A stretch of 64,000 bases of DNA from Octopus vulgaris (taxonomy: Eukaryota): positions 13,268,001 to 13,332,000 of the forward strand of contig OX597822.1 in NCBI GenBank assembly GCA_951406725.2, in the 5' to 3' direction. The notes beneath the pieces were generated by a model. The model was not told the DNA's origin. It searched no databases and was given only the letters and a program-made list of their open reading frames with translations. The number at the start of each line of letters is the position of its first letter. The stretch's first letter is position 1. A program made the position numbers and the translations under genes. Below are positions 8,821 through 58,914 of the stretch, piece after piece.

Positions 8821-9030
8821 CAGTTAATCCAAACATGAAAGCACAAAGAGAAAACACAACAACGCGAGGACGTGGAACAAGTATAGTGTTATTGGACACT
8901 CAGGAATGGAAAGAAAGAAGGAGGATTTAACGTTTCGAGCGGAGCTCTTCGTCAGAAACATAGGAAAAGGAACGATCCAAAGAAGGGAAGACGGAGGGGA
9001 AAAATCGCCAACGATACACACGCGGTCACA
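8821..9030 (-). mobile_element. Short PLE-like element with minimal HHR, in (TA)n
   Basis: Flanked by TA repeats; an HHR-deleted sister copy lies at about 13010-13130 (+). Confidence 0.7.
8925..8959 (-). ncRNA. Minimal type I hammerhead ribozyme motif
   Basis: Minus reads gttt CTGACGA a GAGC tcc GCTC GAAAC GTT aaat; stem III is the palindrome ACGT. Confidence 0.75.
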
Positions 9031-10298
9031 ATATATAAGCCTGTGTATCTGTATGTGTGTATACATCCATGTATAGATAGATAGCTACATGAACAGATAA
9101 ATAGATAGATAGATAGATAGATAGATAGATAGATAGATAGATAGATAGATAGATAGATAGATAGATAGATAGATAGATAGATAGATAGATAGATAGATAG
9201 ATGGTATAACTTCATGGTGTCGAAGCCATGAAGAAAGGAAAATGAGAGGATAACAGGAAGAAGTACTCAACATATTCAAAAACCAGTGTAATCTGTAAAT
9301 CGCTTATCAAACATGCTTTCAACGGAACTCTGCATCTTTGAGTCACTTACATAGTTCACATCTGAAGCAATGCAACCGAGACAACTTTAGTTCTTAAGTG
9401 TGAGGTTGAGAAAAGAACTCGTACCTTGAACGAACTGCCTTCCCTAACTAAGTCTTATGTCACCATTTTCACTTATACTTAATTGTTTTTGCTTTTTTAT
9501 GAACAGCTATCAATTTATAACGTTTCTTTCTGAAAGTTTACTTGGCTAGATTGCAGCGCAAAACCAGACACATGACAGAGAAGCAAGTGTCGGAACAGAC
9601 TACGTCTGTTTGCTTGCTACTATATATTCTAAACTCTCTGTGTTTAATTTATATTATATGTTTTATTTTCTCCTGTATGTTTAATGGCTATGCCTTCACT
9701 GATGATTAACTTGACTCGCCTTAGGCAAACTACTTTCCTATAGATAATTCTATATCCTGTCAGCCGCACAGTTTTCCTGTAAATGAAACGAATACATCAA
9801 CGCATATCACAGACTGAATGCGGAATTGATACGAGACTAAATCAAACCAAGGAAATAACCGAGGAAAGTAAAGAAGCTGAGAGTTTAACGAATGTATATA
9901 TATATATATATATATATATATATATATATATATATATATATATATATATACAAAAAAGGCAAGCAACAGGTTGCTTAGCCACATACCTAAAAATTAGAAA
10001 TAGCAGTCAAAGACCGCTTATTTCTATTTTTCTACAAAGATAACTCCACATATGACATATACATTTAACTCACATATGTAGAACAGAAGGAAAATAACGG
10101 AAACAAAGTCTTCGGTCATATATATTGGTAAATACGGTAAGATAACAAAAGAAAGAAAGAGACATCGATATTATGTAAATAGAGGAAATTATTTGTAAAT
10201 GTAATACCTCGGCATCCGAAACTCAGACTTTTATCTTGGCTACCGAATAATTGTCACATATTACATTTACAGTTATATACATATATATATATATATAT

Positions 10299-10507
10299 GT
10301 AGGTCCCGGGTTGATTCGGGGTTAACCACAGTAAATAAGGTACTCAATACATAGCAGAGTAAAATTAATTTATTATATAGAAGGAGCTTCTACAGGACTA
10401 GAACTGTTTCATTCAAGAGAAATCTTCAGGAAGCTCCTGAGCTTCCTGAAGATTTCTCTTGAATGAAACAGTTCTAGTCCTGTAGAAGCTCCTTCTATAT
10501 AATAAAT
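10299..10507. mobile_element. PLE-like terminal-repeat fragment with perfect 69-bp inverted repeat, in (TA)n
   Basis: Arms 10368-10436 and 10439-10507 with 2-nt spacer; related single arm at 30790-30857. Confidence 0.8.
10439..10491 (+). ncRNA. Type I hammerhead ribozyme motif (mirror copy on minus at 10384-10436)
   Basis: GAGCTTC CTGAAGA tttctcttgaat GAA ACAG ttctagtc CTGT A GAAGCTC: 7-bp stem I, 4-bp stem III, GUA site, weak stem II. Confidence 0.8.
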
Positions 10508-11578
10508 ATATATATATATATATATATATATATATATATATATATGTTCTTTTTTAGTTAAGTGGAAGATACGTTATCCGCGACTTTTGCAGATGGATAA
10601 ATGTGATGCGACTGATGTAAAAGTTGAGAATTTTTAGGCCTGCCTTTGTAGGGATGCCATGAATGTGGATAGCATTCTAAGAGTATTACTGTTTCGGGAT
10701 GTGTTTGAAACGGGATCTACAGTGTCTAAGCAATAGAAGTGAATCGGAGAAACACTGATGTGTTACGTTGTATAAGTTAGCTAGTTTACTGAGGTCGATT
10801 TTGTTGAATGAGTAACAGTAGGCCGCTCAATACGTACAAAAGGGGAGACTAAACGACATCGCCATCCACGTGTAAAACCCTGTTTCTTGAGCCAAATTAT
10901 AGATTCGGTGATGTAGAACGTCGCAAACAACTAAATTATGTGATATAATTAGTCAGAAATTCAGAATTTCTCCCAGGAATTAATTGATAAATATCTCTTC
11001 AGGACTACATAGAATGCATATATATATATATATATATATATATATATATATATACAACAAAGCAAGAGAGATAACTCCAGTAATATCAAGAGAATTTGGA
11101 AAATGAAGACAATAAAACTAGAAATTAATCTTGATTTCTTTTATCAGTTTTATTGAAATTCATTTTCGCTAACTTTTTTCAAATATTTCTCCAATTTTTC
11201 TTTTAGTTTTCTTTCACTTCTTCTCTCTTGCATTCTCTTCGTCTCGCTTTTCCCTTCTTCTTTTATTCTTCACTTGCCCTCTTTAGTTCATACGTTTTAA
11301 GTTCACTTCTATTGCATTCCTCATGTCCTACCACGTGCCTCTCAGATCATCTTATCTCACAGAAATACATTTTTTCTTTCACATTACACCATCTGTCACC
11401 CATCCTCTTATATACACTTCTTTAATGCCCTCACATTCATCTCGCCTTCTCTTTTACCTTACATTTTCCATCTCACTCACTTGAATGCGTTCTTCACACA
11501 GACACCTGATGTTTACACACACCAACATTCCCCAGTACCATCAACCTACGACACTGTACTTCGATAGTTGCATACTTC

Positions 11579-12015
11579 TACATACATACATACATACATA
11601 CATACATACATACGTACATACATCCGTACGTACATACATTCATACATACATACATACATACATACATACATACATCCGTACATACATACATCCGTACATA
11701 CATACATCCGTACGTACATACATACGTACGTACATACATACATACATACATACATACATACATACATACATACATACATACATACATACATACATACATA
11801 CATACATACATACATACATACATACATACATACATACATACATACATACATGCATACATGCATACATACATACATACATACATACATACATACATACATA
11901 CATACATACATACATACATACATACATACATACATACATACATACATACATACATACATACATACATACATACATACATACATACATACATACATACATA
12001 CATACATACATACAT
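11579..12015 (+). repeat. (CATA)n microsatellite with CGTA variants
   Basis: Seen directly. Confidence 0.95.
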
Positions 12016-12391
12016 ATGCAGCACTGCTCCTTAAACTAAAAAAAATAGATGCACTCCAGTATCTGAACACACACACTCACACAAACACATTCACTCATTT
12101 TTCCACTATTTAACTCTGCCTTAGAATCGCATTTCCACCCACTTACCTGGATTTTACCCGTTATACTTTCGTGTCAGTCAGTTTTTTTGTTTTTGTTCTT
12201 TCACGTTCTACCTTCGTTTTTCATCTACAGTTTTCTTTTGAGAAAAATTTCAGCATCCGTATCGTTACGATTCCTTTTTAAGCGTTAAACAAATACAATA
12301 TTTGTCAAACCATTTCCTCCTGTTATTTCTTGTGATTTTGTTCTTTAGCTACACTATAATAAAGGCATGTATACATACATACTTTTATATA

Positions 12392-56924: not shown

Positions 56925-57147
56925 TTTATATATATATATATATATATATATATATATATATATGTGTATGTGTGTGAGTGTGTGTGTGTGTGTGTGTGTG
57001 TGTGTATATATATATATATATATATATATATATATATATATATATATATATATATATATATAATTCAGTCCCTTTAATTATTAATAAACCGTTTCCAATA
57101 TATGGTGAGAAATAGATATTATTTAATGAGCACATTAGATATTTTTA

Positions 57148-57233
57148 AGAGCTACTAAGAGTTTCATGCAATGTAAATGATACAGACAAAATTTTATAAA
57201 ACGTATTGGGCGTTTATGCAATCTTCAAACCCT
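57148..57233 (-). ncRNA. Degenerate type I HHR
   Basis: Minus reads AGGGT TTGAAGA tTGCA...TGCAt GAAAC tctta GTA GCTCT (C3 mutated). Confidence 0.5.
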
Positions 57234-58074
57234 GTTTGTGGTTTGGGAAGAGCTGAGTAAATTAGGAAGAGAAGAGCGAAAATGTTTGATTCAATCAGCG
57301 GCTCTCATAACACTACGAATATATCAAGCGCTAACAACCGTACCCCATGGTGATTGATTTCACTTGTTTAGCAGTCCTGTTTTCAGGTCTAGAAACTGCG
57401 AAATTCCTAGAGCAATTGAAGAGATTTCTTAATATTGTTTATTTATTTTTCGATATTTCCCTCTTTGTTATGTCTTCTCATTGCTTCTGTTTTGACTTCT
57501 CAACTTATGGTACCAAGGTACCTAGTTTTGTTTAAAAATGATGCGTGTGTTTTTGCGAATGAGTGCGTGTGTGCCAGCATGTGTGTGTGTGTGTGTCAAC
57601 CGCATTCTCAATTAAATCCTAACCATCATTTTATTCTTTCTTTCCTTTCTACTTAACCACATTTCTTCTTTCTCTTCCTTCCTCTGCTTTTTGCCTGATG
57701 AACGACTGCCTTATGAAATGTTAAAAGTCATTACTTAATTTTTAGCGTGTAGCTAATGAAATATTTATGAAAACATGTCCTTCCTGTGATGTGTATATTC
57801 TTTTGCTTTTGTTTTTACATTTACAAACTTATGTGTGTATATACATGTATGTCTGTGTGAGCAGATATATATATATATATATGTGTATATATATATATAT
57901 ATATATATATATATATATATATATATATATATATATATATATATATATATATATACATATATATATATATACATATATATATATACATATACATATATAT
58001 ATATATATATATATATATATATATATATATATATATATATATATATATATATATATATATATATATATATAAAA

Positions 58075-58490
58075 TACAAAAATGGGACAAGAACGCAAAA
58101 CACCCAGACAGACGATACAAGGAAAACAAGGACGGATCATTCGGAGTTTTCTGTCCTCAGTCGAGTTCCAGATTATCGGCTGGTTATACTCGAGATTGCT
58201 CCAATCTGGCCAGCCACAAGGAAAAATAAGCTAAGAGCATTACATTCCTTGGAAGAAATCAGTGAATGTAACGGTCGCGTCTCGAACTCGTCCCGTTTTG
58301 TTATATTTTGGTCCCATTCCTGCAACTTTCTTGCCGGTGCCTCCAGACTGGAATCAATGTTATCGATAATGACCGAAATTGCGTTTGACTCCCTGGCCGA
58401 TAACTGATGAGGAGTTGGTGACCTTCTGTATTTTCTGTTCTCCTGTGTATAGTATATGTTGTCGTGTTTATTTAGTACACGTTTTGAAAA
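58075..58490. mobile_element. TA-flanked dispersed element related to 13245-13350
   Basis: Shared gacaagaac...agacga.acaag...ggacgg..cattcg...cagtc.ag..ccagat.atc. Confidence 0.6.
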
Positions 58491-58712
58491 ACTATATAGG
58501 TGTGTCAAATTTTCCATTTGTTGTTTTCTTTTTATTTAATCCTAAAAATATTATTCATATAACACACGCACTCCTTAAACTTTTTATCTATATACACACA
58601 GACACACACAGATACACACACACACACACACACAATATATATATATATATATGTAAAAGAATATATACTATATATATATATATATATATATATATATATA
58701 TATATATATATA

Positions 58713-58914
58713 CTTTATTTTACACAACAAAACTGTTACAGTTCTCGTTGCCGTTCATCAGACAGCTTTTGCTAGAATTTGCTAGATAGCAAAATCTGAT
58801 GAACGGCAACGAGAAACTCGAGTAACAGATATATATAAAATAAAGCATATTACTCTACCACTGGTATTAGTACTCTTTTTTCCACCTTGTTTCACATTTA
58901 TGTGTTTACTCCGG
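58713..58914. mobile_element. Small fold-back HHR element in (TA)n
   Basis: ttctcgttgccgttcatcaga mirrored by tctgatgaacggcaacgagaa; plus copy CTGATGA acggcaacga GAAAC tcga GTA acag at 58796-58828. Confidence 0.75.

What the first reader, a model, noticed from the sequence alone, without database searches (positions are those of the whole stretch)
8821..58914. About 19 hammerhead-motif loci from many unrelated families in 64 kb, mostly inside (TA)n
Seen: CUGANGA/GAAAC/GUH cores at 8925, 10384/10439, 15206, 20842, 23051, 24354, 24657, 26475, 28851, 30807, 32474 (+ mirror), 43507, 44102, 46351 (3' half), 51630/52156, 56024 (+ mirror), 56424, 57148 and 58796 (+ mirror). In most of them stem I closes by complementarity although its sequence differs per family (GAGCTTC/GAAGCTC, CTTTC/GAAAG, CCTGCG/CGTAGG, TCTTT/AAAGA, TGTGG/CTACA), which argues against chance. 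Inference: roughly one motif locus per 3 kb would imply a very large unannotated ribozyme complement if typical of the genome, spread by PLE-type elements that prefer TA microsatellites. If the region is intronic, active copies could cleave host pre-mRNA.
Basis: partly seen in the sequence, partly recalled or inferred. Interest (0 to 1): 0.85.

Follow-up and report, generated by a model that had tools for sequence, protein, structure and literature searches.

The report
Transposon hammerheads with altered catalytic core
The many hammerhead-ribozyme motifs here are real but are mostly decayed tail ends of Penelope-like jumping genes, a known arrangement; the surprise is that the genome's largest such family has fixed a U at a core position that is otherwise almost always A.

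Summary
All 19 loci exist: 24 motifs, because five are mirror pairs. They exceed shuffles (5 vs 0.15 at ≤1 core mismatch). They fall into about 13 repeat families. Two families were traced to Penelope-like element (PLE) GIY-YIG ORFs on the same strand: 14 of 16 Hydra-clade loci, and 4 of 8 canonical-type loci, one of them partial. PLE hammerheads, (TA)n targeting and inverted pairs are published (PMC4209133, PMC8557442).

Only 6 of 24 copies keep an intact core. The density is not typical: about 1 per 14 kb in 390 kb of unbiased DNA. An intronic location is unshown.

New: the largest family (17,383 exact-pattern matches) reads CUGUNGA. U6 occurs in 96 of 100 listed copies, position 7 varies freely, and the other core positions are 96–100% conserved. 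A control family keeps A6 in 97 of 100. I found no natural U6 core in print, and CUGANGA descriptors miss it. Most likely it is an attenuated ribozyme; this is untested.

The parts
8925..8959 (-). Family B minimal type I hammerhead, intact core, in a ~190-bp PLE 3' end (8830-9014)
   Evidence: family linked to a GIY-YIG ORF
10385..10435 (-). Family E hammerhead, intact, with a real stem III; mirror copy
   Evidence: palindrome 10368-10507, 98.6%
10440..10490 (+). Family E hammerhead, intact; locked in a hairpin with its mirror
   Evidence: 97% of bases paired
15206..15293 (-). Family G hammerhead with long stem II insert, core intact
   Evidence: (1,625 first-look candidates)
20843..20877 (+). 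Family A minimal hammerhead with U6 core (CUGUUGA), matches family consensus
23051..23085 (-). Family A copy, G5 lost
   Evidence: (contigs of relatives show G5)
24354..24391 (-). Family K, U3:A8 core variant, 15.2:16.2 pair broken in this copy
   Evidence: relatives' contigs restore the palindromic loop
24657..24733 (-). Candidate I, long stem II, U16.1 lost; no relatives seen
   Evidence: unverified
26478..26519 (-). Family C copy, G12 and 5' stem I lost
28852..28886 (-). Family A copy (U6), G8 lost, stem II decayed
30807..30857 (-). Family E copy, U16.1 lost
32203..32287 (-). Family D (Hydra-clade PLE end), A9 deleted; mirror copy
32474..32557 (+). Family D, A9 deleted; palindrome 32142-32615
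43506..43540 (+). Candidate J, G5 lost; one weak relative (L071)
44102..44136 (-). Family A copy (U6), G16.2 lost
46351..46372 (+). Family A 3' half only (5'-truncated), G16.2 lost
51633..51674 (-). Family C copy, G8 lost; mirror of 52157
52157..52197 (+). Family C copy, cleavage site lost by a 2-nt deletion
55904..55983 (-). Family D2 (relative of D), G12 lost; mirror copy
56025..56105 (+). Family D2, near-intact (U15.2.G16.2 wobble); palindrome 55848-56162
56232..56924 (-). Family F retrozyme-like element: one 587-bp unit plus a 106-bp identical terminal repeat; intact hammerhead at 56424-56515 with long stem II
   Evidence: 1,702 candidates, 39 scored relatives 97-99% identical; 586-bp tandems
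57149..57232 (-). Candidate M, decayed, Hydra-style 3' half; no relatives seen
   Evidence: unverified
58733..58765 (-). Family H copy, stem III deleted; mirror copy
58792..58828 (+). Family H copy, 5' stem I lost; family resembles the Hydra-2_aMil hammerhead

Best explanation
The motifs are 3' ends (pseudo-LTRs) of several Penelope-like retrotransposon lineages, plus at least one retrozyme-like non-autonomous derivative. SHOWN: families B and D lie downstream of GIY-YIG ORFs on the same strand and end at (TA)n; most window copies are damaged. INFERRED from known PLE biology: the endonuclease nicks (TA)n, reverse transcription aborts early and leaves ~200-bp 3' ends holding the hammerhead, and 5' inversion gives the mirror pairs. 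In the parent element the hammerhead trims precursor RNA, as a dimer where stem III is only a palindrome. After insertion the copies decay and are mostly inert. Family A, the most abundant, fixed A6U once and went on amplifying through several subfamilies while keeping every other hammerhead constraint. I think it most likely remains a slow or conditional ribozyme (about 55%): U6 weakens the uridine turn and lets U4-G5-U6 pair with A15.1-C15.2-G16.2, an 'off' monomer fold.
For: PLE link: 14 of 16 Hydra-type endonuclease loci carry a D-type hammerhead downstream, 13 with a perfect core; the L189 ORF has the DKT motif and CxxC/CxH of the Hydra clade. 4 of 8 canonical-type endonuclease loci carry family B, one partial, plus L034/L205. 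Structure: D/D2 stem II has 6 of 11 pairs with changes on both sides; 91% of cells pair vs 36-56% when slid. U6: positions 3,4,5,6,8,9 = C99, U97, G97, U96, G96, A100 of the first 100 rows; position 7 = U43/A25/C22/G10 (my hand count). Control family C has A6 in 97 of 100. A6 copies group at one end of a midpoint-rooted tree next to the B-like copy, position 7 tracks flank subfamilies, and C6 copies sit beside U6 sisters. All 10 incidentally found copies have U6. U6:A15.1 pairing P≥0.92 in 5 of 11 U6 copies, 0 in A6/C6 copies.
Against: No cleavage data. In a type III hammerhead all CUGA single mutants had low activity (PMC9901934), so U6 may simply be dead. No autonomous ORF was found for families A, C, E, F, G, H, I, J, K or M; A is tied to PLEs only through homology with B. 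The 100 rows come from the first 15.6 Mb of one contig and are conditional on an exact stem II and 3' core. The core-vs-flank contrast (0.98 vs 0.82 and 0.68) is inflated because copies were picked by a core pattern. 6 of 11 U6 copies do not show the predicted off-fold. The tree has 33 short sequences, 23 picked for A6/C6, and no support values were examined.
Confidence: 0.8

Rival explanations
1. Family A's U6 motif is catalytically dead and kept only as a structural signal recognised by the PLE reverse transcriptase; being harmless in host transcripts let it reach the highest copy number.
For: Low activity of CUGA mutants (PMC9901934; natural A6C kobs <0.1/min in PMC3088659); predicted rod fold; Naiad PLEs thrive without canonical hammerheads (PMC8557442).
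Against: G8, G12, C3 and a non-G position 17 stay conserved while position 7 changes repeatedly, the pattern expected if cleavage still matters.
Confidence: 0.3
2. U6 and the position-7 variants are neutral founder mutations in successive master copies of a non-autonomous family with no selection on the motif.
For: Successive masters fix random changes; my copy set was selected by a core pattern.
Against: Positions 3,4,5,8,9 were left free and stayed 96-100% while position 7 took all four bases; the flanks diverged between subfamilies.
Confidence: 0.15
3. The window is an intron in which active hammerheads cleave host pre-mRNA or have been purged from the sense strand.
For: Unpaired copies split 3 on + and 11 on - (p=0.057); the three + copies are U6, G5-broken or truncated, which fits purging from a + strand transcript.
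Against: No host exon identified (ORF list only); 17 of 24 copies damaged; mirror pairs hairpin-locked; the bias is not significant.
Confidence: 0.12
4. Chance matches in AT-rich DNA.
For: At ≤2 mismatches the descriptor is near background (7 vs 3.5); sites I, J and M lack good relatives.
Against: 7,497 vs 15, 17,383 vs 0 and 3,913 vs 0 genome counts; 0 profile hits in shuffled DNA.
Confidence: 0.02

Closest known systems
Minimal type I hammerheads (min-HHR) of metazoan PLE pseudo-LTRs (PMC4209133)
   Same: CUGANGAH core with an extra base between 9 and 10.1, G10.1-C11.1, palindromic 15.2-16.2, short stem I, mostly solo copies, opposite-strand pairs 100-700 bp apart, thousands per genome, many families per genome; a U3:A8 variant is also described.
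   Different: Every row of their alignment that I saw (supplement part 2 of 3 and passages of part 1) has A6. Family A has U6 and by itself outnumbers their Xenopus (~9,000) and coelacanth (~4,000) totals.
Hydra-clade PLEs and their hammerheads (PMC8557442, includes Hydra-1_Obim)
   Same: DKT motif, CxxC/CxH around E and N, C-terminal GIY-YIG, (TA)n insertion, sense-strand 3' hammerhead; families E and H match the listed style.
   Different: The Hydra hammerheads in their table have loops 2 of 3-10 nt; D/D2 carry a covarying ~55-nt stem II extension and a palindromic loop III. The CxCX5C linker is not evident in L189.
Non-LTR retrozymes (PMC7229834; bioRxiv 10.64898/2026.07.22.740005)
   Same: Family F: non-coding, tandem or more-than-unit copies, 6-bp stem I, young.
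   Different: Unit 587 bp rather than ~300-390 bp, long stem II insert, often inverted pairs; circular RNA not tested.
Natural A6C hammerhead of phage Bcep176 (PMC3088659, PMC7151607)
   Same: Natural change at position 6; slow in Mg2+, faster in Mn2+.
   Different: A single phage sequence with C; here U, fixed in a eukaryotic transposon lineage of >17,000 copies.

Membership tests
Type I hammerhead ribozyme | Three-way junction with stems I-III and open stem I | tested here: met
   stem III minimal or palindromic in most families
Type I hammerhead ribozyme | Core C3 U4 G5 A6 N7 G8 A9 / G12 A13 A14 / A15.1:U16.1 / H17 (families B, C, D, F, G consensus) | tested here: met
Type I hammerhead ribozyme | A6 in family A | tested here: not met
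   U6 in 96 of 100 rows: hammerhead-like variant, membership pending activity
Type I hammerhead ribozyme | Site-specific self-cleavage 3' of H17 | not testable with these tools
   only assembled contigs were available
Rfam hammerhead families | Score at or above the gathering threshold | tested here: not met
   0 hits; the canonical array L052 is also missed, so the library is insensitive here
Penelope-like elements | ORF with C-terminal GIY-YIG upstream of the hammerhead, same strand (families B, D) | tested here: met
   RT plus endonuclease seen in one frame for D (L189), endonuclease only for B
Penelope-like elements | Same link for families A, C, E-H, I-M | tested here: inconclusive
   no ORF among the copies held; A is homologous to B
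Penelope-like elements | Inverted or tandem end structures and microsatellite targets | tested here: met
Hydra clade PLE (family D) | DKT motif; CxxC and CxH around E and N; no CCHH | tested here: met
   read from the L189 ORF against PMC8557442 section 11
Hydra clade PLE (family D) | CxCX5C linker and RWK motif | tested here: inconclusive
   linker not evident; N-terminus missing in L189
Hydra clade PLE (family D) | RT phylogeny | not tested
   no tree with reference PLEs was built
Non-LTR retrozyme (family F) | Non-coding tandem units, each with a type I hammerhead | tested here: met
   586-bp tandems; terminal repeat in the window
Non-LTR retrozyme (family F) | Circular RNA intermediate | not testable with these tools
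   no raw RNA reads were listed

The most novel reading that the evidence does not exclude
CUGUNGA is a functional natural hammerhead core: the most successful PLE-derived family in this genome uses a U6 ribozyme that stays off as a monomer and cleaves only when dimerised, protein-bound or with another metal. Standard CUGANGA searches would then be missing a major class of animal ribozymes.
Probability: 0.35. Interest if true: 0.78.

Novelty: new variant of a known kind. Interest (0 to 1): 0.5.

Why it matters
The role of PLE hammerheads is still open (stated in PMC8557442). Family A offers a natural experiment: A6, U6 and sporadic C6 versions of one element, with the U6 form dominant. If U6 cleaves, the accepted core is wrong at one position and animal ribozyme counts are too low. 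If it does not, a PLE-derived lineage amplified to tens of thousands of copies while conserving a hammerhead fold without catalysis, which points to a structural role. The density itself adds a hammerhead-rich genome to a known list.

Tried and rejected
Rfam: the whole-window E-value scan listed only miRNA-type hairpin matches among the 150 of 446 rows shown; gathering scan 0.

C6 as a lineage of its own (765 matches): rejected. C6 copies are scattered beside U6 sisters, including a U6/C6 pair in L003.

A shifted register restoring A6 in family A (UUGAAGA): rejected. It needs a fixed U at the position that takes all four bases and loses stem I.

Single-sequence folding z-scores were weak (-0.02 to -2.56 for 11 sites) and carry no weight.

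No RNA holder listed on record. Contigs of four runs guessed to be RNA covered repeat-like parts of 21300-25200 and left other parts uncovered. This says nothing on expression or introns.

The PLE ORF beside L029 belongs to a different young family with its own motif, not to family B. L018's long upstream region gave no ORF. No autonomous partner was found for family F in the 25 stretches held for it (19 flanking loci; 6 ten-kb stretches). No genome-wide count of long-stem-II motifs was obtained. Earlier scan notes: nothing found.
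Full report
SETTING. The window is G000:C9:13268001-13332000, in a 2.8-Gb genome of 227 contigs. It is 35% GC and full of microsatellites. Size and repeat landscape recall octopods; that is from memory and was not tested. The ORF list shows no evident host exon, only repeat-derived frames and transposon fragments.

1. THE OBSERVATION. All 19 loci are present, 24 motifs with mirrors. A descriptor needing the core, stem II ≥4 bp, a 15.2:16.2 pair and stem I ≥4 bp found 2 hits at 0 mismatches (0 in 30 shuffles), 5 at ≤1 (mean 0.15 in 20) and 7 at ≤2 (mean 3.5 in 6). 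So few copies pass on their own; the rest are recognised by family. Profiles found 25 segments in the window (the 24 plus a core-less fragment at 13043), 36 in 39 evenly spaced 10-kb loci, and 0 in shuffles. Eight of the 36 belong to one tandem array whose profile was built from that locus and were set aside. The remaining 28 in 390 kb give 72 per Mb, or about 200,000 genome-wide including fragments (134,000-291,000). The window profiles were built partly from the window, which inflates its own count. The family-free descriptor with U6 allowed gives 8 hits vs 0.65 by chance in the window, and 25 vs 8 in the 390 kb. The window is thus about 3-5 times denser than average. Exact patterns: 7,497 minimal A6 cores vs 15 control, 17,383 family A vs 0, 3,913 family C vs 0. 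Families F, D and G gave 1,702, 1,386 and 1,625 first-look candidates, 40 scored each.

Intact by inspection: 8955, 10429, 10446, 15288, 20847 and 56509; 56029 has a wobble at 15.2:16.2; 17 are damaged. (TA)4+ lies within 250 nt downstream of 16 of 24 motifs (30% expected) and of 31 of 40 perfect cores elsewhere (17.5% expected), but on both sides of only 9 of 24. The motif therefore sits at a fairly fixed distance before (TA)n (mostly 120-140 nt for A and B), as for an element's 3' end.

2. WHAT THEY ARE. Family D: an inverted pair in L131 encloses a GIY-YIG endonuclease about 600 bp upstream of the hammerhead. Searching with it gave 150 scored loci. I took 16, spanning 97-72% identity: 14 have a D-type hammerhead downstream on the same strand (13 with perfect core), one a partial profile hit, one nothing. 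L189 holds a 786-aa RT-endonuclease frame with DKT and CxxC/CxH, features of the Hydra clade (PMC8557442 section 11). In 15 D/D2 sequences 91% of cells pair, 7 of 21 pairs change on both sides (6 in stem II), and slid controls give 36-56%. Shuffles were exceeded for paired cells and covariation score (0/500) but not for pair counts (45/500, 101/500), and relatedness alone can produce the former. Loop III is a palindrome or near-palindrome (CAUAUG, CAUGUG, CACGUG), as dimer formation would need.

Family B: a canonical-type GIY-YIG lies upstream of L034 beyond a long CA-rich stretch. Of 8 related endonuclease loci taken from 150, 3 have a full and 1 a partial family B end; 4 have none within 2.5 kb. 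Family A cross-matches B but no ORF of its own was found. Family F in the window is one 587-bp unit with a 106-bp identical terminal repeat, and occurs elsewhere as 586-bp tandems and inverted pairs: retrozyme-like. E and H resemble the published Hydra hammerheads; K is a U3:A8 variant.

3. THE U6 FAMILY. With core positions 3-9 left free, the first 100 of 17,383 family A matches read C99, U97, G97, U96 (A2, C1, G1), then U43/A25/C22/G10, G96, A100 (hand count; rows from the first 15.6 Mb of C1). The same test on family C gives A6 in 97 of 100, so this is no genome-wide mutation bias. On a tree of 33 copies with positions 3-9 masked, A6 copies group with the B-like copy, position 7 follows flank subfamilies, and C6 copies are scattered T-to-C changes; all 10 copies found incidentally have U6. 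Folding predicts U4-G5-U6 pairing with A15.1-C15.2-G16.2 at P≥0.92 in 5 of 11 U6 copies; the other 6 mostly carry further changes.

4. MECHANISM. Shown: sequence anatomy, family structure, ORF linkage for B and D, covariation for D. From established PLE biology (PMC4209133, PMC8557442): target-primed insertion at (TA)n, 5' truncation and inversion, hammerheads working as dimers with low activity. Inferred: the window's copies are inert leftovers, and the mirror pairs would fold into hairpins that bury the ribozyme. For U6 I favour a slow or conditional ribozyme (about 55%) over a dead structural signal (30%) or drift (15%), because G8, G12, C3 and a non-G position 17 persist while N7 turns over. 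Against this, CUGA mutants were weak in PMC9901934, and natural A6C is slow in Mg2+ though rescued by Mn2+ (PMC3088659, PMC7151607). Host cleavage: unpaired copies are 3 on + and 11 on - (p=0.057), suggestive only.

5. LITERATURE SEEN. PMC4209133: parts 1-2 of 4 of the text, supplement file 2 part 2 of 3 plus passages; file 1 could not be searched and figure panels are only partly legible. PMC8557442: passages, section 11, supplement passages and part 2 of 59. bioRxiv 10.64898/2026.07.22.740005: part 1 of 5; its supplements are closed. PMC7229834, PMC6962438 (235 Hammerhead_1 hits in giant squid), PMC3088659, PMC7151607, PMC9901934: passages only. Searches for a natural U6 core and for cephalopod hammerhead surveys showed none in their listings. 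The library lacks most subscription papers, and the supplementary figures of PMC3088659 were not seen. Position numbering and the dimer model follow PMC4209133.

6. VERDICT. The per-3-kb extrapolation and host cleavage are not supported. What is new is the dominant CUGUNGA lineage and, secondarily, Hydra-clade and retrozyme-like hammerheads with long covarying stem II. New variant of a known kind; interest 0.5.

Noticed in passing
L052:2228-4592: Tandem and inverted array of ~355-bp units, each with a canonical type I hammerhead (6-bp stem I, 4-bp stem II): a classical non-LTR retrozyme that Rfam misses.
   Followed up: partly
L183-L188; L153-L182: Very young PLE family (811-851-aa open frames, RT plus GIY-YIG, CX4CxxC linker, 18,473 first-look candidates) with an atypical hammerhead-like motif: U3:A8 core, 2-bp stem II, an extra U before position 3; two copies in tandem position in L183.
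   Followed up: partly
L212: PLE relative with ~1,000-aa frames and a CA-rich 3' region over 2 kb interrupted by GC-rich inverted repeats; no hammerhead within 2.5 kb.
   Followed up: no
window 34741-35180 (-): Decayed PLE reverse-transcriptase fragment.
   Followed up: no
window 40889-41236 and 59512-60383 (-): Fragments that look like non-LTR retrotransposon endonuclease and RT tails (assignment from memory).
   Followed up: no
window 7638-7818, 20048-20550, 4707-4741: Further inverted repeats, two centred on microsatellites, not among the listed hammerhead loci.
   Followed up: no
family B loci L012-L040: Many copies begin at nearly the same point ~80 nt upstream of the core, so they behave like fixed ~200-bp units rather than random truncations.
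   Followed up: partly
L135, L158, L070: Additional intact hammerhead families not present in the window, so the genome total is above the estimate from window families.
   Followed up: no
window 12367-13956, 29144-29778, 31562-32004, 46119-46350, 62309-62892: Several copies of an abundant dispersed repeat without a hammerhead.
   Followed up: no
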